Shown here: positions 3,926 through 55,074 of the stretch, piece after piece
Position numbering within the stretch: position 1 is the first letter of the stretch
Layout: each line of letters starts with the position of its first letter
Assembly (NCBI GenBank): GCA_035530075.1
Contig: DATKVM010000005.1
Span: 231,006-295,005, forward strand
DNA: 64,000 nucleotides
Reading direction: 5' to 3'
Source of the DNA: Patescibacteria group bacterium
GTDB lineage: Bacteria; Patescibacteriota; Microgenomatia; UM-FILTER-40-11
The notes under the pieces: model-generated
Told to the model about the DNA's origin: nothing
Database searches by the model: none
What the model saw: the letters and a program-made list of their open reading frames with translations, nothing else
Made by a program: the position numbers and the translations under genes

Positions 3926-4301
3926 TGGTGGAGATGTCCGGAATTGAACCGGAGTCCGAAAAATACTTCTTAAAACTTCTACAAGCTTAGGCTGACTTTA
4001 AATCCTTCAACCTGTTCCGTCAGCCAGGAAGGTTGAAGGCCGCCAAACTTGGGCTTGAGTATTAGGAGTTTGGCAACCCTAACACCGGCGTCTTGTCTTT
4101 GTTCACACCTTTAAGCTTCCGACAAGCAAGAAACCTTAAAGATGCCTGTTACGCTAAAGAAGCGTAGTTAAACGCAAAATTAACGTCAGGGGAAGCGTAT
4201 GTATCATTAGCTTCTATTTTTTTTGACCCTGTTTTACTTCTCTTAGTCAAAGAAGGCTTGCTGTTTTAAAAGAGCCTTTTCCGTCGAGACCAGTCATCCC
4301 C
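3926..4301 (-). ncRNA. ssrA: tmRNA (ssrA)
   Basis: The minus strand reads 5'-GGGGATGACTGGTCTCGACGG...GGTTCAATTCCGGACATCTCCACCA-3'. This gives a tRNA-Ala-like acceptor (GGGGATG / CATCTCC+ACCA) and a T-arm GGTTCAATTCC. The partner gene smpB is directly adjacent. An internal reading frame (complement of 4149-4211) would encode the tag ANDTYASPDVNFAFNYASLA followed by a stop. Confidence 0.8.
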
Positions 4302-6005: not shown

Positions 6006-6087
6006 GGAGGGTGGGCAGGACGGTAATGCGCTGGTCTTGAAAACCAGTGTCCGTAAGGACTAACAGGTTCGACTCCTGTACCCTCCG
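6006..6087 (+). tRNA. tRNA-Ser(UGA)
   Basis: Acceptor GGAGGGT/ACCCTCC; anticodon stem CTGGT/ACCAG with loop CTTGAAA (anticodon TGA); long variable arm; T-arm ACAGG-TTCGACT-CCTGT. Confidence 0.85.
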
Positions 6088-8139: not shown

Positions 8140-8216
8140 GCGCTCATAGTTTAACGGATAAAATGCCAGGTTGCGGACCTGGAGACTTGGAGGTTCGATT
8201 CCTCCTGGGCGCACCA
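8140..8216 (+). tRNA. tRNA-Arg(GCG), CCA encoded
   Basis: Acceptor GCGCTCA/TGGGCGC; D-stem GTTT/AAAT with loop AACGGATA; anticodon stem CCAGG/CCTGG with loop TTGCGGA (anticodon GCG); T-arm GGAGG-TTCGATT-CCTCC; 3' ACCA. Confidence 0.75.
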
Positions 8217-8399: not shown

Positions 8400-8484
8400 G
8401 GAAAGGTGCAGGAGTGGTTGAACTGGCCGCTCTCGAAAAGCGGTAGGGCGCAAGCTCTCGTGGGTTCGAATCCCACCCTTTCCG
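8400..8484 (+). tRNA. tRNA-Ser(CGA)
   Basis: Acceptor GGAAAGG/CCTTTCC; anticodon stem CCGCT/AGCGG with loop CTCGAAA (anticodon CGA); long variable arm; T-arm GTGGG-TTCGAAT-CCCAC. Confidence 0.85.
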
Positions 8485-8611: not shown

Positions 8612-8683
8612 GCCTTTGTAGCTTAACGGATAGAGCGCCGGCCTCCGGAGCCGGAAATGCCAGTTCAATTCTGGCCAGAGGCA
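8612..8683 (+). tRNA. tRNA-Arg(CCG)
   Basis: Acceptor GCCTTTG/CAGAGGC; D-stem GCTT/GAGC with loop AACGGATA; anticodon stem CCGGC/GCCGG with loop CTCCGGA (anticodon CCG); T-arm GCCAG-TTCAATT-CTGGC. No encoded CCA. Confidence 0.8.
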
Positions 8684-9277: not shown

Positions 9278-9364
9278 GGAGAGGTCGCATAGTGGTCGAG
9301 TGCACGCGCTTGGAGAGCGCGCAGGGCCGAGAGGCTCTCGCGGGTTCGAATCCCGCTCTCTCCG
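9278..9364 (+). tRNA. tRNA-Ser(GGA)
   Basis: Acceptor GGAGAGG/TCTCTCC (one G-U pair); anticodon stem CGCGC/GCGCG with loop TTGGAGA (anticodon GGA); long variable arm; T-arm GCGGG-TTCGAAT-CCCGC. Confidence 0.8.
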
Positions 9365-31348: not shown

Positions 31349-31810
31349 TAAAAGCAGTTATTTTAGCCAGAGTATCAACGCTCAAACAGGAAAAAGAGGG
31401 ACTATCTCTCAAGGATATTCAACTCCCCGAACTTAGGGATTATGCCGTCAAAAGAGATTTTGAAGTAGTCAAAGAGTATTACTGAGAGCTACTATGAGGA
31501 AAAACGAAAAGAGTATCGGGCAAAACAGAAGGAAATTGAGAACAAAATGGCTAAGCTACGATTTGCCGACGAGGAATACTATATAACCTCAGAATACCTG
31601 CTAAAACTGGCTTCTAACGCAAGTAAACTGTTTGAAAGTTCTGAAGCACACGGAAAACGGCTACTTTTGAAGATGACACTTCAGAACTTGGAGCTAAAGG
31701 GTAAAAAAGCCCGATATGACTGGACAAAACCCTTTGACAAGATTGCTTTTTACGCCTCTCGTCAAGTTCAGCTCCCCCGCGTGGATTCGAACCACGAACC
31801 GATCGCTTAA
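31345..31810 (+). pseudogene. Serine recombinase remnant: a 46-aa catalytic N-terminus (ARVST) then a stop, followed by an out-of-frame C-terminal tail
   Basis: 31345-31485 encodes 'MIKAVILARVSTLKQ...' (resolvase catalytic Ser motif) and ends at a TGA. A second open frame runs from about 31480 to 31810 ('...EKRKEYRAKQKEIENKMAKLRFADEEYYITSEYLLKL...'). Its 3' end overlaps the tRNA-Asn 3' end. The total is far shorter than a functional recombinase. Confidence 0.5.
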
Positions 31811-31843
31811 CAGGCGAGCGCTCTACCGTTGAGCTACAGGGGA
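31772..31843 (-). tRNA. tRNA-Asn(GUU)
   Basis: Minus strand: acceptor TCCCCTG/CGGGGGA; D-stem GCTC/GAGC; anticodon loop CTGTTAA (anticodon GTT) with a 4-bp stem plus one mismatch; T-arm CGTGG-TTCGAAT-CCACG. Confidence 0.75.
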
Positions 31844-49087: not shown

Positions 49088-49354
49088 ATGACAGATTTTA
49101 ATATTTGCTGCCCTTTTGCCGTTCCTCAAATGGCAGACCCTTCCCGGCGCAAAATTTATGAACACCTGGCAACTCACGGAGAGAAAACCGTCAATGAGAT
49201 AACCCAGGTAATGAAATTGCGCCAGCCGACGGTTTCCTATCATTTGCGGCAAATGAAAAAAGAGGGGATTTTGACCAGTCGGAAGCAGGGGAGAGAGGTT
49301 TTCTACCGTGTTAAGCTGACTTGTCCCGAAGGCGGGAGTTGTTTTGGACTATAA
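49088..49354 (+). CDS. ArsR/SmtB-family transcriptional regulator
   Basis: HTH 'RRKIYEHLATHGEKTVNEITQVMKLRQPTVSYHLRQM'. Confidence 0.7.
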   Translation: MTDFNICCPFAVPQMADPSRRKIYEHLATHGEKTVNEITQVMKLRQPTVSYHLRQMKKEGILTSRKQGREVFYRVKLTCPEGGSCFGL

Positions 49355-50537
49355 AAAAATGAAAAAAGTCTATTTAGATTATGCCGCTACGACTCCGGTA
49401 AGGCCGGAAGTAGTGGAGGCAATGTGTCCATATTGGACCGAGAAATTCGGTAATCCCTCCAGTATTCACTCTTGGGGCCGAGAAGCGCGGGAGGCAGTAG
49501 AGCAAGCTCGAGCGGCGGTGGCCGCGGTACTGGGAGCCGAACCAAGAGAAGTCATTTTTACTTCCTCAGTGACCACAAGCGATAATTTGGCGATTTTAGG
49601 TGTTGCTCGGGCGGCCGGCAAGGGACATCTTATTACTTCTCAAATTGAGCACCACGCGGCTTTGGATGTTTTCCACGTTTTGGAAAAAGGGGGCTTTGCC
49701 GTCATTTATCTGCCGGTTGGCCCGACCGGCATAGTGGACTTGAAAGCCTTGGAGTCGGCTATTAGGTCGGAAACAATTTTGGTTTCGGTAATGTGGGCTA
49801 ATAATGAAGTGGGGACGGTTGAGCCTTTGGAGGAAATCGTTAAAATTGTCAAAGCGCAAAACCCTAAAACCCATGTTCATACTGACGCGGCCACGATAGT
49901 TGAGTATCTGCCGATTAACGCCAAAAAGTTGGGGGTGGATTTACTTTCCCTGGGGGCCCATAAATTCGGTGGTCCTAAAGGGGTGGGTATTTTGTATCTT
50001 AAGAAAGGCACAAAAATTGACCCGATTACTTATGGCGGCCATCACGAAGAGGGCCTTTGGCCCGGGACAGAGCCAACTCCTCTTATCATTGGTGCCGCTA
50101 AAGCGTTGGAGTTGGCTCAGTTAGAAGTTAGAAGTTCAAAGTTCAAGGTTACAAGGTTGCGAGATAAATTAATCAAAGGGGTGTTGGAAAAAATTCCGGA
50201 GGCTTTCTTGACTGGGGACCCGGTAAAGCGGCTACCGGATATCGCTTCTTTTCGATTCAATGGGGCCGAGGGGGAGGCGATTTTGCTCCGGCTGGATGCT
50301 GAAGGGATTGCCGCTTCTTCCGGCTCAGCTTGCACTTCGGGAGAGCTTAAGCCCTCACATGTTCTTTCGGCGATGGGGATTAAGCCCGAGGAGACCCATG
50401 GTTCGGTGCGATTCTCTTTGGGGAGAGGGACAACGGAAGAGGAAATTGATTATGTCCTTGAAAAACTACCCCTCATTATTAAAGAATTGAGAGCGATTGC
50501 TCCTCAATTATGTGTGGAAACGGAGGAATTACCTTAA
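49344..50537 (+). CDS. Cysteine desulfurase (NifS/IscS class)
   Basis: PLP-lysine region 'SLGAHKFGGPKGVGILY' and active-site 'SSGSACTSG'. Confidence 0.85.
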   Translation: MDYKKMKKVYLDYAATTPVRPEVVEAMCPYWTEKFGNPSSIHSWGREAREAVEQARAAVAAVLGAEPREVIFTSSVTTSDNLAILGVARAAGKGHLITSQIEHHAALDVFHVLEKGGFAVIYLPVGPTGIVDLKALESAIRSETILVSVMWANNEVGTVEPLEEIVKIVKAQNPKTHVHTDAATIVEYLPINAKKLGVDLLSLGAHKFGGPKGVGILYLKKGTKIDPITYGGHHEEGLWPGTEPTPLIIGAAKALELAQLEVRSSKFKVTRLRDKLIKGVLEKIPEAFLTGDPVKRLPDIASFRFNGAEGEAILLRLDAEGIAASSGSACTSGELKPSHVLSAMGIKPEETHGSVRFSLGRGTTEEEIDYVLEKLPLIIKELRAIAPQLCVETEELP

Positions 50538-50538
50538 A

Positions 50539-52011
50539 ATGGCGGATTTAAAAGCTCTTTATTCGGAGAAAGTTTTGGACCATTTCCAACACCCGCGCAA
50601 TATAGGGGAGATGAAAGATCCTGATGGAGTGGGAACGGTGGGTAATCCTGTTTGTGGGGACGTGATGCGACTTTTTATTAAAGTCGGTAAAAAAGATGGC
50701 CAGGAAATTATCAAGGATGCTAAATTTCAAACTCTTGGCTGTTTACCAGATAAAGAAGAAACCGTTCTCGCTAACAGTCAATGGTTAACAATTGGGAGTC
50801 TTATTGGCGGGACGAAAGTTTTAAATGGCGAAGGAAAAGAAACTCTAAGTTCCAATCTTTTTACGAGAAATTATGAAGGCGAACTCCTTACTATAATTCC
50901 TTTTGTTTCTCCTTTTAATTCATTTTCCGTGACGCCGAATCACCCAATATTTTGTCTAAAAAGAAAATCTTTGGTAAAAACCAGGAGAAGTAGCTCTAAA
51001 TGTAGTTGGTTGCGAGTTGATAATGAGGAAGTTACTTCTGCAGACCCAGATTATTCCAGAGCTGATAAGCTTGAGATAGGCGATTATTTGGTTTTTCCTT
51101 ATAGTAACGAAACAATTGATAATAAATTGTTCTCCAAGAGGCTGATGAGACTCTTAGGTTATTACCTTTCTGAAGGTTATATTACAGCCGGAAGTGTGAC
51201 TAATTTTTCCTTTAATTGTAACGAGAGGAATTTAATTGATGAGGTAAGATCATTAGTACTAGGAATTACTAATAAAAAAACTTCAGAACGGACTCGAGGA
51301 AATGTCACAGAAATAAGGTTTTGTTCAAAAAAATGGGCAGATTTTTTTATTTTAAACTGTTCGAGATTGGCAAGAAAAAAGTGCTTGTCTGAAACTCTTC
51401 TTAGGCTACCTTTTAGTAAACAATGGGAGATGGTAAAAGCTTTTATGTTAGACGATGGCGATGTTTATAAAAGGAGACTCAGGGATACTGAAACTTACAG
51501 GATGATTACCACTTCCAGATCATTGGCGATTCAAGTACAGGAAATATTAGTAAGGGGGGGGATCTTTGCGTCAATAAGAGAAATTTTTAAAACCAATTGC
51601 TTTATCGAAGGTCGAAAACTTAAGGACTCCGTTCAGTATTTAGTTTCCTTTAAATTGAAAAAGACAAAAAATAAATTGGTCCGTAAATGCAAAAGTTATT
51701 TTCTTGTTCCAATAAGAGAAATAAAAAGAGAAAAGTTTCAGGGTTTGGTTTATAATTTTCAAGTTTTGGGAGAACCCAATTCATACTTGGTCAAGGGGTT
51801 CGCTGTTCATAATTGTGGGGCAGCCATTGCCACGAGTTCAATCGCTACAGAAATGATTAAAGGCAAGCCATTGTCAGAGGCAATGGAGTTGACTAATCAA
51901 GCAATTACTGAAGCTTTGGGCGGTCTTCCTCCGGTCAAAAGGCACTGCTCTGTCTTAGCCGCCGACGCGGTGAAGAAAGCGATTGCTGATTATGAGAGCA
52001 AAAAGAAATGA
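50539..52011 (+). CDS. iscU: Fe-S cluster scaffold IscU/NifU-like, interrupted by an intein
   Basis: Exteins 'NPVCGDVMRLFIKV...KFQTLG' and 'CGAAIATSSIATEMIKGKPLSEA...RHCSVLAADAVKKAI' together make ~132 aa, a normal IscU length. The insert starts with Cys and ends with His-Asn before the +1 Cys. Confidence 0.8.
   Translation: MADLKALYSEKVLDHFQHPRNIGEMKDPDGVGTVGNPVCGDVMRLFIKVGKKDGQEIIKDAKFQTLGCLPDKEETVLANSQWLTIGSLIGGTKVLNGEGKETLSSNLFTRNYEGELLTIIPFVSPFNSFSVTPNHPIFCLKRKSLVKTRRSSSKCSWLRVDNEEVTSADPDYSRADKLEIGDYLVFPYSNETIDNKLFSKRLMRLLGYYLSEGYITAGSVTNFSFNCNERNLIDEVRSLVLGITNKKTSERTRGNVTEIRFCSKKWADFFILNCSRLARKKCLSETLLRLPFSKQWEMVKAFMLDDGDVYKRRLRDTETYRMITTSRSLAIQVQEILVRGGIFASIREIFKTNCFIEGRKLKDSVQYLVSFKLKKTKNKLVRKCKSYFLVPIREIKREKFQGLVYNFQVLGEPNSYLVKGFAVHNCGAAIATSSIATEMIKGKPLSEAMELTNQAITEALGGLPPVKRHCSVLAADAVKKAIADYESKKK
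50740..51813 (+). mobile_element. Intein (358 aa) with a LAGLIDADG homing-endonuclease domain, inserted at the conserved IscU GCG(S/A)AI site
   Basis: Starts 'CLPDKEET', ends 'GFAVHN', then 'C'. Internal blocks 'LLGYYLSEGYI' and 'FMLDDGDVY' are LAGLIDADG-type. Confidence 0.75.
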
Positions 52012-53615
52012 AAAACCGTTTTGCCATTAAAATTTCCGGGCCAGCCGGAGCAGGGATGATGCAGGCCGGAGAAACCTTAAGCAAGGCCTTAAACCGCTTA
52101 GGTTTTTTTAGCTTAATGTATCCCGAGTATCCTTCGCGGATTCGGGGGGGCGATAATCACGTTCAAGTGGTTTTCTCTTCCCGTCAGTTTCTTTCACCTC
52201 AAGAAAAAGTTAATCTCCTTTTGGCCTTCGGTCTGGACAATTTATTGGCCCATCAGGATGAAGTGATTGAAGGCGGTTTGAATTTTGAAGCTGGTGATAT
52301 TGGTTTGGGAGGAATTGCTGACAAGTTGGGCAATCCCTTAGTGGCCAATAGCGCCGCTTTAGGTTTTCTTTGGGCGGTTTTGGGTTTTGACTTGCCAGTG
52401 TTGAAAGAACAATTGGCCGAAGATTTTGCCGAGAAGAAAACAATTAAGGATCTTAATTTAAAGGCAGCCGTGGCCGGTTTCGAGAAAGCAAAAGATATTT
52501 GGGGGATGGCAAAGGTGAAAACCAAAGGTATTAAGGGGAAGATTAGCAATTTATCCGGCAACGAGGCTTTGACTCAAGGAATTTTGGCGGCTGAATGCAG
52601 TTTTGCCGCCATTTATCCGATGACGCCGATAAATTCGATTTTAAGCATGTTGGCTAAGACTAAGGTGAATTTATTCCGGCCGGAAGATGAAATTGCCGGG
52701 ATAAATGCGGCTATTGGCGCTGCCTATGCTGGTGGCCGAGCAATGGTTGCCACTTCCGGCGGCGGCTTTTCCTTAATGGTAGAAGCCTTGGGGATGGCAG
52801 GGGCTGCCGAAGTTCCGGTGGTAATTGTTGTTGGTCAGCGCACTGGCCCCTCGACAGGCATGGCGACCTTTAGTTCCCAAGCAGACTTAAACTTTGTCAT
52901 TAATGCCGGTCACGGCGAGTTTCCCCGGATAGTGTTGACCCCGGGCGATTTAGAGGAGTCTTATCGGCTAGGAGCCGAAGCTTTTAATTTAGCCGAGCGC
53001 TATCAAGTGCCAGTCATTTTATTGACCGACAAATACTTGGCCGAAAGCTGTTTTAGTCGCCTGAAAGAAATTTTGGATAAAGTGGTGGTTAGAATTGACC
53101 GCGGGAAACTTTTCGACGGCAAAGGAGAGTATCGGCGGTATGCCCTAACTCTTGATGGAATTTCCCCCCGAGCCTTTCCCGGTCAGACCGTTTTTTTGAC
53201 CAACTCCTACGAGCACGATGAATATGGCTTCTCAACGGATGAGGTTGGAATTAGGGAAGAAATGATGGCCAAAAGGGGAAGAAAACTGATTGGGTTAAAG
53301 GGAGGGGTGGAGAAATATGGGGAAGAGGGAGCGGAAACGACTTTGGTCGGTTGGGGTTCGACTAAAGAAATTCTTTTAGATTTCATTACAACTCACCCCG
53401 ACTATAATCTTGTTCATTTTTGGCGGCCCTGGCCCTTTCCAAAAGAAGCGGAGGAAATTCTTCGCCAAGCCAAGAAACTAATCGTGGTTGAAGGGAATTT
53501 TTCCGGGCAGCTGGTAGATTTAATTGAAAAAGAAACCGGTTTAAGGCCAAAAAGAGTTTTGAAAGATAACGGGAGGCCTTTTTATAAGGAAGAATTGGCT
53601 AGGTTACTTAAGTAG
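52008..53615 (+). CDS. korA: 2-oxoacid:ferredoxin oxidoreductase alpha subunit
   Basis: Domain order and motifs ('GNEALTQGILAAECSFAAIYPMTPI') fit OFOR/KorA. The downstream beta subunit overlaps by translational coupling. Confidence 0.7.
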   Translation: MKNRFAIKISGPAGAGMMQAGETLSKALNRLGFFSLMYPEYPSRIRGGDNHVQVVFSSRQFLSPQEKVNLLLAFGLDNLLAHQDEVIEGGLNFEAGDIGLGGIADKLGNPLVANSAALGFLWAVLGFDLPVLKEQLAEDFAEKKTIKDLNLKAAVAGFEKAKDIWGMAKVKTKGIKGKISNLSGNEALTQGILAAECSFAAIYPMTPINSILSMLAKTKVNLFRPEDEIAGINAAIGAAYAGGRAMVATSGGGFSLMVEALGMAGAAEVPVVIVVGQRTGPSTGMATFSSQADLNFVINAGHGEFPRIVLTPGDLEESYRLGAEAFNLAERYQVPVILLTDKYLAESCFSRLKEILDKVVVRIDRGKLFDGKGEYRRYALTLDGISPRAFPGQTVFLTNSYEHDEYGFSTDEVGIREEMMAKRGRKLIGLKGGVEKYGEEGAETTLVGWGSTKEILLDFITTHPDYNLVHFWRPWPFPKEAEEILRQAKKLIVVEGNFSGQLVDLIEKETGLRPKRVLKDNGRPFYKEELARLLK

Positions 53616-53621
53616 CTTAGG

Positions 53622-54344
53622 TTGCTTATGATAGACGAGAAAGCTTTATTTACTTCTCAAGAGCCAACCTGGTGTCCGGGCTGTGGGGCTTACGCTTTTT
53701 TAGCGGCTCTCAAAAAAGCCATCGTAGAAAATAAACTTGAGCCAAAGAATATCGTTTTGACTTATGATATTGGCTGTTCCGCCAATATGGTTAATTTCTT
53801 GAATGTTTGCGGTTTTGCCACTCTGCATGGCCGCTCAATTCCGGTTGCTGTTGGAGCAAAAGTACTTAACCCCAAGCTGACCGTCATTGCTCAGGGAGGA
53901 GAGGGGGGCATTGTCACCGAGGGGGCCAATCATTTAATTCATGCCGCTCAACGAAATGATGACATTACCGTCGTTGTCAATAACAACTATGTCTTCGGCT
54001 TAACTACCGGTCAAGCTTCCGCGGCCACTCCCAAAGGGGCAGTCACTCGCTCTACTCCTCATGGTAATCTCTATGAAGCGCTTTCGGCAATTGATTTGGC
54101 AGCCGTTTCCGGCGGGACTTTCATTGCTCGGGCTTTGGCTTCCAATATTAAAGCGATGGAGGAAATTTTGCGTCAAGCCATTATCCATAAAGGCTTTAGT
54201 TTAGTGGAGGTAATTCAGCCCTGCGTTATTTGGGCTAAGGACTTAATTGTTCCTGGACCGGTTTGGGTGGAGAAACCGTTTATTGATCGCCGGGAGTTCC
54301 TCGGGCAGGCAAATCTCTTCGGAATTCTCTATAATAAAAAGTGA
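53622..54344 (+). CDS. korB: 2-oxoacid:ferredoxin oxidoreductase beta subunit (TPP-binding)
   Basis: 'TWCPGCGAYA' and 'DIGCSANM' TPP-binding motifs. Confidence 0.7.
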   Translation: MLMIDEKALFTSQEPTWCPGCGAYAFLAALKKAIVENKLEPKNIVLTYDIGCSANMVNFLNVCGFATLHGRSIPVAVGAKVLNPKLTVIAQGGEGGIVTEGANHLIHAAQRNDDITVVVNNNYVFGLTTGQASAATPKGAVTRSTPHGNLYEALSAIDLAAVSGGTFIARALASNIKAMEEILRQAIIHKGFSLVEVIQPCVIWAKDLIVPGPVWVEKPFIDRREFLGQANLFGILYNKK

Positions 54345-54345
54345 A

Positions 54346-55074
54346 ATGCCATTTCTGAATGTTCTCATCTTTGGCTCACTGGCTGGCTTGGCCACCCTCT
54401 TGGGGATTTATTTAATTGTTAAGCAAGAAAAATGGGCCCAAAAGAATTTAATTTATCTTATTTCTTTTTCGGCTGGCGTTTTGCTTTCCTTTTCTTTTGT
54501 TCACCTTCTGCCGGAGGCACTTGACCAAAGCAAAGGCGCTCTCTTTATCACTCTAATCTCTTTTTTGGCTTTTTATATTTTGGAACATGCCCTAACGCTT
54601 CACACCTGCGAAGAGGGAGGAGAATGTCCTCCACATGAGACTTTTACTTTGGTTTCGTGGGTCGGGCTTTTTGTCCATTCTCTAATCGACGGAGTGGTTA
54701 TCGGGGCCGGATTTGAAGTTTCCTTTGCTTTAGGGATTCTGTCGACGCTGGCGGTCTTATTGCATGAATTGCCTGAAGGGGTATCCTCAATGGCCATAAT
54801 GCTTTATGGCGGTTATTCGGTTAGAGAAGCCATTAAGTATTCAGTCTGGGTGGCCCTGGCCACTCCTTTTGGGGCGGTTATTTCTTTCCTCCTCTTGGGA
54901 AAAACTAACAGTGGTTTGGTGGGGCTGCTTTTGGCGGTTGCCGCGGGTAGCTTTTTGTATGTGGCTGCTTCAGATTTGATTCCGGAAATTCACAAGAAAA
55001 GCCGAGTCCTAAATATCTTTTTGACTCTTCTGGGGGCCTTAGTTCCCTTCATTGCCAGTCTCTTTTTGAGATAA
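54346..55074 (+). CDS. ZIP-family metal transporter (ZupT-like)
   Basis: 'HELPEG' signature and multiple TM helices. The start is set at Met 'MPFLNV' just after the korB stop. Confidence 0.7.
   Translation: MPFLNVLIFGSLAGLATLLGIYLIVKQEKWAQKNLIYLISFSAGVLLSFSFVHLLPEALDQSKGALFITLISFLAFYILEHALTLHTCEEGGECPPHETFTLVSWVGLFVHSLIDGVVIGAGFEVSFALGILSTLAVLLHELPEGVSSMAIMLYGGYSVREAIKYSVWVALATPFGAVISFLLLGKTNSGLVGLLLAVAAGSFLYVAASDLIPEIHKKSRVLNIFLTLLGALVPFIASLFLR

What the first reader, a model, noticed from the sequence alone, without database searches (positions are those of the whole stretch)
50740..51813. Intein with LAGLIDADG endonuclease inside the Fe-S scaffold gene iscU
The IscU reading frame is interrupted exactly at the conserved GCG(S/A)AI motif by a 358-aa insert. 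The insert begins with Cys, ends with His-Asn and is followed by Cys, and contains LAGLIDADG blocks ('LLGYYLSEGYI', 'FMLDDGDVY'). The exteins splice conceptually to a normal ~132-aa IscU. Inteins are well known in SufB of some lineages. An IscU/NifU-site intein is less familiar to me and would mark a distinct insertion site.
Basis: partly seen in the sequence, partly recalled or inferred. Interest (0 to 1): 0.65.

Follow-up and report, generated by a model that had tools for sequence, protein, structure and literature searches.

The report
Homing intein inside the IscU gene
A self-splicing, mobile protein element (an intein carrying its own DNA-cutting enzyme) interrupts the iron-sulfur scaffold gene iscU just before one of the cysteines that hold the cluster; the element is an ordinary kind, but I found no published description of this host gene and site, and it turns out to be widespread in uncultivated microbes.

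Summary
ORF 50539-52011 (+) encodes a 490-aa NifU/IscU-type scaffold interrupted by a 358-aa in-frame insert (50740-51813). The insert starts with Cys, has block B TxxH, two LAGLIDADG motifs, ends His-Asn and is followed by Cys. Removing it gives a 132-aa IscU that aligns without gaps, at 93% identity, to an intein-free IscU in a syntenic locus, and to solved IscU structures. At least 120 protein clusters carry the same-site intein (47-72% intein identity). Across these homologs (120 aligned in full, 110 over the intein) C1, T65, H68, H357, N358 and C+1 are invariant and length is fixed at 356-364 aa. The AlphaFold model (pLDDT 94.6) matches endonuclease-containing inteins (TliVMA, PI-SceI, PI-PkoII). 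It is a canonical class-1 intein with a homing endonuclease, and the +1 nucleophile is the second Fe-S ligand cysteine. New context: its nearest relatives are inteins in SufB and in the beta subunit of 2-oxoacid:ferredoxin oxidoreductase, all at Gly|Cys-x-Ala sites. Some IscU homologs carry a second intein before the first ligand cysteine. A closer relative lacks the intein. I found no paper describing IscU/NifU inteins. Verdict: real, a new member of a known kind, moderately interesting. Splicing and homing are inferred, not shown.

The parts
49088..49354 (+). ArsR/SmtB-family HTH regulator, first gene of the cluster
   Evidence: Pfam HTH_20/HTH_5. The same gene precedes nifS-iscU in syntenic loci L005 and L091.
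49344..50537 (+). NifS-type cysteine desulfurase. Its stop codon lies one base before the iscU start (translational coupling).
   Evidence: Pfam Aminotran_5 E 1.4e-76. Best NCBIfam model is TIGR03402 FeS_nifS, 485.5 bits, below its 530.75 cut-off. Sequence read.
50539..50739 (+). IscU N-extein (67 aa), ending ...KFQTLG. Contains the first ligand motif GNPVCGD.
   Evidence: NifU_N Pfam stretch. Gapless alignment to intein-free P0121 and to PDB 4eb5.
50740..51813 (+). Intein, 358 aa (41.3 kDa), class 1, with an embedded LAGLIDADG homing endonuclease
   Evidence: AlphaFold2 pLDDT 94.6 / pTM 0.91. Foldseek top hits are 7qsu (E 9e-20), 1vde, 2cw7 and 1dq3. GC is 0.346 against 0.454 in the exteins.
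50740..51120 (+). N-terminal part of the splicing (HINT) domain, residues ~1-127 (boundary approximate). Block A Cys1 at 50740-50742. Block B T65-x-x-H68 at 50932-50943.
   Evidence: All-beta secondary structure in the model. C1, T65 and H68 are invariant in 110/110.
51121..51657 (+). LAGLIDADG endonuclease domain, residues ~128-306 (boundaries approximate). Motif 1 LLGYYLSEG at 51151-51177 (E145). Motif 2 VKAFMLDDG at 51433-51459 (D239). The window copy has a unique G238D at 51451-51453.
   Evidence: PF14528. PI-PkoII alignment over residues 133-263. I-DmoI and I-Tsp061I fold matches. Conservation counts.
51658..51813 (+). C-terminal part of the splicing domain, residues ~307-358. Blocks F/G read VYNFQV...NSYLVKGFAVHN. 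His357-Asn358 at 51808-51813.
   Evidence: Pfam Intein_splicing partial match to profile positions 81-155. N339, Y349, L350, G353, F354, H357 and N358 are invariant.
51814..52011 (+). IscU C-extein (65 aa plus stop). It starts with Cys+1 (51814-51816), the second Fe-S ligand Cys, in CGAAIATSS. It also contains LPPVK and the His-Cys of the third ligand.
   Evidence: NifU_N profile positions 56-125. C+1 aligns to Cys58 of 4eb5 chain numbering. C+1 is invariant in 120/120.
52008..54344 (+). 2-oxoacid:ferredoxin oxidoreductase alpha (52008-53615) and beta (53622-54344) subunits. The alpha start overlaps the iscU stop (ATGA). The beta subunit contains an unoccupied DIG|CSA site of the kind invaded by a related intein elsewhere.
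   Evidence: TIGR03710 at 501 bits, above cut-off, and beta-subunit models. Site comparison. Related PFOR-beta intein P0249.

Best explanation
The 1074-bp insert is a canonical class-1 intein with an embedded two-motif LAGLIDADG homing endonuclease. It sits in the NifU/IscU-type Fe-S scaffold gene of a nifS-iscU operon. The operon probably belongs to a Patescibacteria (CPR) bacterium, judging by the names attached to the closest extein homologs.

Inferred mechanism:
1. The 55.4-kDa precursor is translated as one chain.
2. Cys1 attacks the Gly67-Cys68 peptide bond (N-S acyl shift, assisted by block B Thr65/His68).
3. The thioester is passed to Cys+1 (transesterification).
4. Asn358, helped by His357, cyclises and releases the 41.3-kDa intein.
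5. An S-N shift leaves a native Gly-Cys bond. The product is a 14.1-kDa IscU with the motif TLGCGAAIA.

Cys+1 is the second of the three cluster-ligand cysteines, and the insert splits the fold. The scaffold therefore cannot work until splicing has happened.

At the DNA level the endonuclease is expected to cut intein-free iscU alleles across the GGN|TGY junction, so that repair copies the intein in (homing). This would explain its patchy distribution.

What is shown: the anatomy, the conservation, the fold, a clean empty site in a close relative, and relatedness to SufB and PFOR-beta inteins. What is inferred: that splicing occurs, that the endonuclease of this particular copy is active, and that spread is by homing.
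For: - Junctions and frame: read on the sequence.
- Family hits: NifU_N split in two and LAGLIDADG_3 above its cut-off. The only NCBIfam hits of the insert are intein-containing models (Tes intein, PolII, DnaB).
- Breadth: 120 cluster representatives (48-72% overall identity to the window protein) carry the same-site insert.
- Catalytic residues: G-1, C1, H, N and C+1 are 120/120. T65 and H68 are 110/110. E145 is 109/110, G146 110/110, D239 108/110, G240 109/110.
- Length: 356-364 aa in all 120, so the endonuclease is retained under selection.
- Fold: AlphaFold2 model pLDDT 94.6, pTM 0.91. Best PDB folds are endonuclease-containing inteins: TliVMA 7qsu (E 9e-20), PI-SceI, PI-PkoII and PI-PfuI. 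Single-chain LAGLIDADG enzymes (I-DmoI) follow.
- Splice product: the spliced extein is gapless against the intein-free 132-aa P0121 (93%). It scores 186.9 bits in one stretch on TIGR03419, against 170.9 bits in two stretches for the precursor. It aligns to IscU 4eb5 and 7c8m with no gap at the junction.
- Empty site: in syntenic L005, the blastn alignment to the window breaks exactly at the intein boundaries.
- Patchy distribution: L005 (no intein) is the closer relative (NifS 85.7%, OFOR alpha 79%). L091 (with intein) is more distant (74%, 61%).
- Decoupled histories: pairwise intein and extein identities correlate weakly (r = 0.44). Some pairs have 95% extein with 53% intein identity, others 82% with 92%.
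- Composition: intein GC 0.346 and GC3 0.29, against 0.454 and 0.43 in the exteins.
- No RNA intron: Rfam finds none in the region.
Against: - No experiment shows splicing or DNA cleavage.
- Pfam Intein_splicing scores only 19.8 bits (cut-off 35.8) on this copy, although it passes in several homologs.
- The usually acidic block F residue is Asn339 in 110/110. The usual block F His position is Asn/Ser. This is a trait of the clade, shared with nearly all the SufB, PFOR-beta and other related inteins compared.
- This copy has Asp where 109/110 relatives have Gly, next to the catalytic Asp of LAGLIDADG motif 2 (G238D). The nearest intein relative, P0002, has D239N. The endonuclease of this lineage may therefore be weakened or decaying.
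- No close relative of the intein was found in viral contigs (30% identity at best). No near-identical intein-free allele of the same population was found. Ongoing homing is therefore not demonstrated.
Confidence: 0.9

Rival explanations
1. The intein is not only selfish. It has been co-opted as a post-translational switch. Both splicing nucleophiles are thiols, and Cys+1 is a cluster ligand. Splicing, and hence the supply of active IscU, would then respond to redox state, metal ions (Zn, Fe, Cu) or persulfide load. This is analogous to what has been proposed for the M. tuberculosis SufB intein. It adds to the best explanation rather than excluding it.
For: - The nearest intein relatives sit in SufB and PFOR-beta, also directly before functional cysteines.
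[quoted passage not shown] 2015, cited in PMC8891592).
- Some IscU homologs carry inteins before both the first and the second ligand Cys.
- The IscU-site inteins have two extra conserved cysteines, C88 and C195, in at least 90% of 110 sequences. They are absent at the aligned positions of the SufB inteins compared.
Against: - Endonuclease catalytic residues are conserved in 108-109 of 110 sequences.
- The distribution is patchy, and a closer relative does well without the intein.
- Both facts are what a purely selfish homing element predicts. Any intein with Cys+1 must sit before a conserved Cys.
- No data on splicing conditions exist.
Confidence: 0.12
2. The insert is a dead intein remnant that no longer splices. 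The gene is then a pseudogene, or it encodes a permanently interrupted protein with another role.
For: Weak Intein_splicing Pfam score. Asn instead of Asp in block F. G238D in the endonuclease.
Against: - All residues needed for the four splicing steps are present here and invariant across 110-120 homologs down to 47% intein identity.
- The frame is intact.
- The exteins remain 93% identical to an intein-free IscU, with all three Cys ligands, Asp, His and LPPVK kept.
- The gene is translationally coupled within a conserved nifS-iscU-OFOR operon.
- The block F Asn is shared by nearly all of the related inteins compared, including the SufB ones.
Confidence: 0.03
3. The insert is removed at the RNA level (a group I or II intron carrying a LAGLIDADG ORF), or it is an assembly chimera.
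For: LAGLIDADG ORFs are common in group I introns. The GC content drops sharply inside the insert.
Against: - The insert is in frame with both exteins and is flanked by HINT-domain halves with Cys1 and His-Asn-Cys.
- Rfam finds no intron in the window.
- The identical protein was read on 8 contigs, and the 4 places shown come from 4 different samples. More than 100 diverged homologs keep the same junctions.
Confidence: 0.01

Closest known systems
SufB (Pps1) inteins, e.g. the 359-aa Mycobacterium tuberculosis SufB intein
   Same: - Host role: also an Fe-S assembly scaffold.
- Almost the same size and the same layout: class 1, Cys1, block B His (His67 in Mtu, His68 here), C-terminal Asn and Cys+1, with an intact LAGLIDADG domain (PMC8891592).
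- SufB inteins from metagenomes and MAGs are, together with a PFOR-beta intein, the nearest non-IscU relatives of this intein. They are 31-39% identical over all 358 residues (E 1e-44 to 1e-57).
- They share near-identical termini: CLPxxE... at the start and ...SYLVKGFAVHN|C at the end.
- The insertion site has the same Gly|Cys-x-Ala form.
- In an NJ tree, the IscU, PFOR-beta and SufB inteins separate from ten other related inteins with 98% bootstrap support.
   Different: - The host protein is different and non-homologous (IscU/NifU_N rather than SufBD).
- The site differs (TLG|CGAA rather than HYVEG|CTAP).
- The IscU-site inteins form their own clade (bootstrap 90 for the core) and carry clade-specific conserved Cys88 and Cys195.
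- I could not compare directly with the M. tuberculosis sequence. That it belongs to the same site is inferred from the conserved His at position -5 reported in PMC8891592 and seen in the HY[IV]EG|C flanks.
Endonuclease-containing inteins with solved structures (TliVMA/PhoVMA 7qsu/7qst, PI-SceI 1vde, PI-PkoII 2cw7, PI-PfuI 1dq3)
   Same: Same two-domain architecture: a HINT splicing domain interrupted by a two-motif LAGLIDADG endonuclease. Foldseek E 9e-20 to 1.5e-12, TM 0.57-0.67. PI-PkoII is also the best sequence match in the PDB (E 0.006).
   Different: Sequence identity is only 10-16%. The hosts differ (V-ATPase, DNA polymerase, ribonucleotide reductase). Block F has Asn rather than Asp.
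Intein-free NifU/IscU scaffolds (A. fulgidus IscU 4eb5, Methanothrix IscU 7c8m, clostridial-type NifU TIGR03419)
   Same: The spliced exteins are a full-length member. E 1.1e-47 to 4eb5 with no gap at the splice junction. All ligand residues and LPPVK are present. TIGR03419 is covered over positions 1-120 of 121.
   Different: The gene here needs protein splicing to produce that protein. The TIGR03419 score of 186.9 bits is just under the 187.9 equivalog cut-off.
Second IscU intein site ('site a', before the first ligand Cys), seen only in homologs
   Same: Same host protein and same logic: the +1 nucleophile is an Fe-S ligand Cys (GNPV|C...LHN|CGD). Ten of the 120 homologs carry both inteins. 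Pfam Intein_splicing scores 72 bits in P0244.
   Different: Mostly mini-inteins of 144-159 aa without an endonuclease. One full-length example is P0336. The site is not occupied in this window.

Membership tests
Intein (class 1, HINT-fold protein-splicing element) | Nucleophile (Cys/Ser) as first residue | tested here: met
   Cys1 at 50740-50742. Invariant in 120/120 homologs.
Intein (class 1, HINT-fold protein-splicing element) | Block B Thr-x-x-His | tested here: met
   T65-P-N-H68 at 50932-50943. T65 and H68 are invariant in 110/110.
Intein (class 1, HINT-fold protein-splicing element) | C-terminal His-Asn followed by a Cys/Ser/Thr as first C-extein residue | tested here: met
   H357-N358 | C+1 at 51808-51816. 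All three are 120/120.
Intein (class 1, HINT-fold protein-splicing element) | HINT fold of the splicing domain | tested here: met
   AlphaFold2 pLDDT 94.6. The top 16 Foldseek PDB hits are all inteins. By sequence alone, Pfam Intein_splicing is sub-threshold here (19.8 against 35.8 bits), but it is recorded for many homologs.
Intein (class 1, HINT-fold protein-splicing element) | In-frame insertion at a conserved site of a conserved host protein, whose removal restores an uninterrupted homolog | tested here: met
   The 132-aa splice product is gapless against the intein-free P0121 (93%) and has no gap at the splice junction against 4eb5. The DNA alignment to the empty-site locus L005 breaks exactly at the boundaries.
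Intein (class 1, HINT-fold protein-splicing element) | Auxiliary, not defining: acidic block F residue (Asp) and block F His | tested here: not met
   Asn339 in 110/110. The His position is Asn in 92/110 and His in 13/110. The same VYN/VFN motif occurs in nearly all the related SufB, PFOR-beta and other inteins compared. It is therefore a trait of this clade, not a sign of decay in this copy.
Intein (class 1, HINT-fold protein-splicing element) | Autocatalytic excision with extein ligation | not testable with these tools
   Needs expression or proteomics.
LAGLIDADG homing endonuclease (single-chain, two-motif) | Two LAGLIDADG motifs, each ending in an acidic residue followed by Gly | tested here: met
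   LLGYYLSEG (E145-G146) and VKAFMLDDG (D239-G240). Conserved in 108-110 of 110. PF14528 at 36.3 bits, above the 22.5 cut-off. Caveat: G238D is unique to this copy.
LAGLIDADG homing endonuclease (single-chain, two-motif) | Pseudo-dimeric alpha-beta-beta-alpha-beta-beta-alpha fold | tested here: met
   The secondary-structure order in the model over residues 133-305 fits this. Foldseek matches I-Tsp061I and I-DmoI at E 4e-7 to 1e-5.
LAGLIDADG homing endonuclease (single-chain, two-motif) | Site-specific cleavage of the intein-free allele, and homing | not testable with these tools
   Indirect evidence only. There is presence/absence among close relatives and intein and extein divergence are decoupled. 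At least 120 metagenomic contigs carry an unoccupied KFQTLGCGAAIAT site.
IscU / NifU N-terminal-domain Fe-S scaffold (host protein) | NifU_N domain with three ligand Cys, the Asp after the first Cys, and His-Cys at the third site | tested here: met
   PF01592 E 5.7e-43. GNPVCGD, G|CGAAIA and KRHCS align to 4eb5 Cys33/Cys58/Cys102 by chain numbering. That these are the ligands is established knowledge, not tested here.
IscU / NifU N-terminal-domain Fe-S scaffold (host protein) | NCBIfam equivalog cut-off for clostridial-type NifU (TIGR03419) | tested here: inconclusive
   The spliced sequence scores 186.9 bits against a cut-off of 187.9. The precursor scores 170.9 bits in two stretches.
SufB (Pps1) intein allele | Insertion in SufB at HY[VI]EG|CTAP | tested here: not met
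   The host is IscU and the site is TLG|CGAA. The intein is a relative (31-39% identity) of that allele, not a member of it.
Bacterial intein-like (BIL) / other Hint domains | Hint domain in a variable, non-conserved protein, usually without a +1 nucleophile or without ligation | tested here: not met
   The host is a highly conserved protein. Canonical HN|C is present and a precise splice product is predicted.

The most novel reading that the evidence does not exclude
A single intein lineage (IscU site b, PFOR-beta, SufB; Gly|Cys-x-Ala sites) has specialised on cysteines that bind or relay Fe-S clusters. In IscU it works as a conditional splicing switch. The thiol chemistry of Cys1/Cys+1, possibly with the clade-specific Cys88/Cys195, would make release of active scaffold depend on redox state, metal or sulfide availability. 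Streamlined organisms, which have few regulators, would thereby gain post-translational control of Fe-S biogenesis.
Probability: 0.1. Interest if true: 0.7.

Novelty: new member of a known kind. Interest (0 to 1): 0.4.

Why it matters
- It adds the ISC/NIF-type scaffold IscU to the list of intein hosts, at two sites, each directly before a cluster-ligand cysteine. The IscU inteins share ancestry with the well-studied SufB inteins and with inteins in a 2-oxoacid:ferredoxin oxidoreductase subunit. This points to an intein lineage that has moved between non-homologous Fe-S proteins through similar Gly|Cys-x-Ala target sites.
- For annotation: public records call these roughly 490-aa proteins 'iron-sulfur cluster assembly scaffold protein' or 'hypothetical' and do not flag the intein. 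The interruption also lowers the equivalog model score.
- For intein biology and engineering: the family offers many natural variants of a Cys1/Cys+1 intein with a Gly at -1. It also offers a natural system to test whether splicing is coupled to redox or metal status in Fe-S biogenesis.
- It does not change any concept. It is a canonical intein.

Tried and rejected
- Genome-collection scan. These were still useful: a Woesearchaeota NifU with a same-site intein, and SufB inteins in Gottesmanbacteria and Steroidobacteraceae. The scan gave no taxonomic census.
- Viral contigs. Only distant inteins were found (30% identity at best) and none in IscU. There is no support for a phage vector.
- Metagenome scan for unoccupied sites. 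The best match is 76% DNA identity to the window exteins, worse than L005 (84%). It could not show an intein-free allele in the same population.
- Cluster-member look-up for organism names. No names were returned.
The Topilina 2015 paper and the supplements of Novikova 2016 are not held.
- The extein search did not list intein-containing proteins at all, not even the query's own precursor. It cannot be used to estimate what fraction of IscU genes carry the intein.
- The first tree script timed out. The tree was redone as a fast NJ tree with 100 bootstraps and is only indicative.
- Considered and rejected: group I/II intron (in frame, HINT halves, no Rfam hit), BIL domain, assembly chimera, dead remnant.
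- Not attempted: dN/dS for the intein. The nearest DNA relative has 68% amino-acid identity, so synonymous sites are saturated.
Full report
**1. The observation**

One ORF runs from 50497 to 52011 on the + strand (likely start ATG 50539). Reading the DNA gives these positions:
- Insert start: TGT at 50740.
- Insert end: CAT-AAT at 51808-51813.
- Next codon: TGT at 51814-51816.

The insert is 1074 nt (358 codons), in frame and free of stops.

Pfam finds the NifU_N domain (E 5.7e-43) in two stretches on either side of the insert. It finds LAGLIDADG_3 inside it at 36.3 bits (cut-off 22.5). The generic Intein_splicing model scores only 19.8 bits (cut-off 35.8). The only NCBIfam matches of the insert are to intein-containing models: Tes intein, PolII large subunit and DnaB. 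The best PDB sequence match is the intein endonuclease PI-PkoII, over the LAGLIDADG region.

**2. The exteins**

Joining 50539-50739 to 51814-52008 gives a 132-aa protein.
- It is 93% identical, without gaps, to a 132-aa intein-free IscU (P0121). It is 82-89% identical to several other intein-free IscU proteins of 131-147 aa.
- It aligns to solved IscU structures with no gap at the splice junction: A. fulgidus 4eb5 (E 1.1e-47) and Methanothrix 7c8m.
- By that alignment the three cysteines correspond to Cys33/Cys58/Cys102 of 4eb5. These are the cluster ligands according to established knowledge of IscU. The +1 residue of the intein is therefore the second ligand cysteine.
- The spliced sequence covers TIGR03419 (clostridial-type NifU) over positions 1-120 of 121 in one stretch, at 186.9 bits. 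The precursor gives 170.9 bits in two stretches. The cut-off is 187.9.

The gene sits in a tight operon:
- An ArsR-type regulator comes first.
- NifS follows; its stop codon lies one base before the iscU ATG.
- iscU is next.
- The 2-oxoacid:ferredoxin oxidoreductase alpha and beta subunits follow; the iscU stop overlaps the alpha start.

**3. The insert in relatives**

A search of 5.8 billion protein clusters returned 444 hits at E ≤ 1e-5. The best 120 are all 474-650 aa, and all have both NifU_N and LAGLIDADG_3 on record.

Conservation across these homologs:
- G-1, Cys1, His, Asn and Cys+1 are invariant in 120/120.
- T65 and H68 (block B) are invariant in the 110-sequence intein alignment.
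- The LAGLIDADG acidic residues are E145 in 109/110 and D239 in 108/110. Their following glycines are 110/110 and 109/110.
- Intein length is 356-364 aa in every case, although mean intein identity to the window is only 54%.

This is the signature of purifying selection on both the splicing function and the endonuclease.

An AlphaFold2 model built on this alignment has pLDDT 94.6 and pTM 0.91. The best PDB folds are all endonuclease-containing inteins: TliVMA (E 9e-20), PI-SceI, PhoVMA, PI-PkoII and PI-PfuI. Single-chain LAGLIDADG enzymes such as I-DmoI follow.

Deviations from the textbook intein:
- The block F residue is Asn339 rather than Asp, in 110/110. The same VYN/VFN motif occurs in nearly all the related inteins compared, including those in SufB. 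It is a clade trait.
- The window copy has two unusual substitutions at otherwise ≥95%-conserved columns, G238D and F313L. This is within the family's range of 0-5. G238D lies next to the catalytic Asp of motif 2.
- The nearest intein relative, P0002, has D239N. The endonuclease in this sub-lineage may be weakening.

**4. Mobility**

The identical protein was read on 8 contigs, and the 4 places shown come from 4 different samples.

Two syntenic loci were recovered:

| Locus | IscU protein | Intein | Intein identity to window | NifS identity to window | OFOR alpha identity to window |
|---|---|---|---|---|---|
| L005 | P0121 | none | n/a | 85.7% | 79% |
| L091 | P0002 | present | 68% | 74% | 61% |

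- The closer relative lacks the intein. The DNA alignment of L005 to the window stops and restarts exactly at 50739/51814.
- No intein-containing homolog has more than 82% extein identity to the window. Intein-free ones reach 93%.
- Across 7140 homolog pairs, intein and extein identities correlate only weakly (r = 0.44). Some pairs have 95% extein with 53% intein identity. Others have 82% extein with 92% intein identity.
- The intein is AT-richer than its host gene: GC 0.346 and GC3 0.29, against 0.454 and 0.43. The same holds in L091.

These facts fit a horizontally moving homing element with gains and/or precise losses. They do not prove current activity.

Two further searches gave no support for ongoing spread. 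Viral contigs hold only distant inteins.

**5. Wider family**

An exhaustive HMMER search of 1.84 billion representatives with the intein alone gave 2540 hits at E ≤ 1e-3 and 20 at E ≤ 1e-30. After the IscU inteins, the best full-length matches (31-39% identity over residues 1-358) are inteins in other host proteins:
- SufB, at HY[VI]EG|CTAP.
- The beta subunit of pyruvate/2-oxoacid:ferredoxin oxidoreductase, at GIG|CGS.
- A site reading CAT|CDAP. From memory this is the thioredoxin-reductase active-site motif; I did not test this.

All of these start CLPxxE and end SYL(V/A)(K/R)GF(A/V)xHN|C.

The His at position -5 of the SufB site matches the conserved 'His-5' described for the 359-aa M. tuberculosis SufB intein. 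That intein has Cys1, His67, Asn359 and Cys+1 (PMC8891592).

At the DNA level the IscU, SufB and OFOR-beta sites share GGN|TGY NNN GCN, that is Gly|Cys-x-Ala.

A quick NJ tree (100 bootstraps) shows the following:
- The IscU-site inteins form a clade. Support is 90% for a core of 13 sequences and 57% when an archaeal pair is included.
- The window groups with P0002, P0004 and P0007 at 100%.
- The IscU, PFOR-beta and SufB inteins together separate from ten other related inteins at 98%.

A Woesearchaeota MAG has a same-site intein in a longer NifU (37% identity, L006). Gottesmanbacteria and Steroidobacteraceae MAGs have the SufB version.

Named records differ by type:
- Intein-containing IscU: the only two named records are Omnitrophica MAGs.
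- The window's closest named intein-free exteins: mostly Patescibacteria or Microgenomates MAGs, plus one record labelled Clostridia.

The window is therefore probably from a CPR bacterium. That assignment rests on names only.

**6. A second IscU site**

Ten of the 120 homologs, and also P0244, are 624-650 aa. They carry an additional 144-159-aa mini-intein at GNPV|C...LHN|CGD, directly before the first ligand cysteine. Pfam Intein_splicing scores 72 bits in P0244. P0336 has a full-length intein at that site, and P0260 has a Ser1 intein at site b. The window has only site b.

**7. Mechanism**

The best explanation is standard class-1 protein splicing:
1. An N-S acyl shift at Gly67-Cys68.
2. 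Transesterification to Cys+1.
3. Cyclisation of Asn358.
4. An S-N shift.

This yields a 14.1-kDa IscU and a free 41.3-kDa intein (masses). Homing then occurs by endonuclease cleavage of empty alleles. The chemistry is inferred from the residues and the fold; nothing here demonstrates it. The insert separates the first ligand Cys from the second and third, so the precursor should be inactive as a scaffold (inference).

A regulatory role through redox- or metal-conditional splicing, as proposed for the SufB intein, is possible. It is not needed to explain the data. I give it about 0.1.

**8. Novelty**

Six full-text searches found no paper describing an intein in IscU or NifU. The searches paired 'intein' or 'inteins' with: IscU; NifU; Patescibacteria; candidate phyla radiation; 'iron-sulfur cluster assembly scaffold'; Omnitroph*.

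The main text of the large survey by Novikova et al. mentions SufB only in its reference list, and its supplements are not held. From memory, InBase lists Pps1/SufB but no NifU/IscU allele; I could not check this.

The sequences themselves are public. They are annotated simply as scaffold or hypothetical proteins.

I therefore rate this a new member (a new host gene and site) of a thoroughly known kind of element. The added observations are the link to SufB and PFOR-beta inteins, the two sites at ligand cysteines, and the wide distribution in uncultivated lineages. Together they give it moderate interest.

Noticed in passing
homologs P0082, P0086, P0097, P0099, P0100, P0103, P0110, P0117-P0119, P0244 (not in the window; equivalent window site 50652|50653, before the TGT of GNPVCGD): A second intein site in IscU. 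A 144-159-aa mini-intein (C...LHN|C) lies directly before the first Fe-S ligand Cys, so these proteins carry two inteins. P0336 has a full-length, endonuclease-containing intein at that site.
   Followed up: partly
P0248-P0257, P0274, P0276, L007, L008 (SufB); P0249, P0261 (OFOR/PFOR beta); P0268 (CAT|CDAP site); window 53622-54344 holds an unoccupied DIG|CSA site: The nearest relatives of the IscU intein sit in SufB, in the beta subunit of 2-oxoacid:ferredoxin oxidoreductase, and at a thioredoxin-reductase-like CATC site. All are at (Gly/Thr)|Cys-x-Ala. This suggests jumps between non-homologous proteins through similar target sites.
   Followed up: partly
L006:3001-4092 (Candidatus Woesearchaeota MAG JACPCE010000024.1): A DPANN archaeon carries a same-site intein (37% identity) in a longer NifU with a C-terminal extension. 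The allele therefore crosses the bacteria/archaea boundary.
   Followed up: partly
window 51451-51453 (intein residue 238); also P0002 residue 239: The window copy has Asp where 109/110 relatives have Gly, next to the catalytic Asp of LAGLIDADG motif 2. Its nearest intein relative has the catalytic Asp changed to Asn. The endonuclease may be decaying in this sub-lineage.
   Followed up: partly
window 51001-51003 (intein Cys88) and 51322-51324 (Cys195): Two cysteines are conserved in at least 90% of the 110 IscU-site inteins but are absent at the aligned positions of the SufB inteins compared. Cys195 is also present in the PFOR-beta intein P0249. Their role is unknown.
   Followed up: no
window 49088-49354 vs L005 and L091: The ArsR-type regulator is 86% identical to the more distant locus L091 but only 74% identical to the closer L005. 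This is the opposite of NifS (74% and 86%) and OFOR alpha (61% and 79%). It may reflect recombination or differing constraint.
   Followed up: no
window 53622-54344 and 54247-55074: The OFOR beta subunit is only 240 aa. It matches the beta-subunit profiles only over positions ~5-206 of ~287. Its 3' end overlaps the ORF of a ZIP-family transporter by about 100 nt. The beta subunit may be short or truncated.
   Followed up: no
window 3926-4301 (-); 6006-6087, 8140-8213, 8400-8484, 8612-8683, 9278-9364 (+); 31772-31843 (-): A tmRNA gene (145.8 bits) and six tRNA genes, four of them clustered within 1.3 kb. No rRNA or intron families were found in the window.
   Followed up: no
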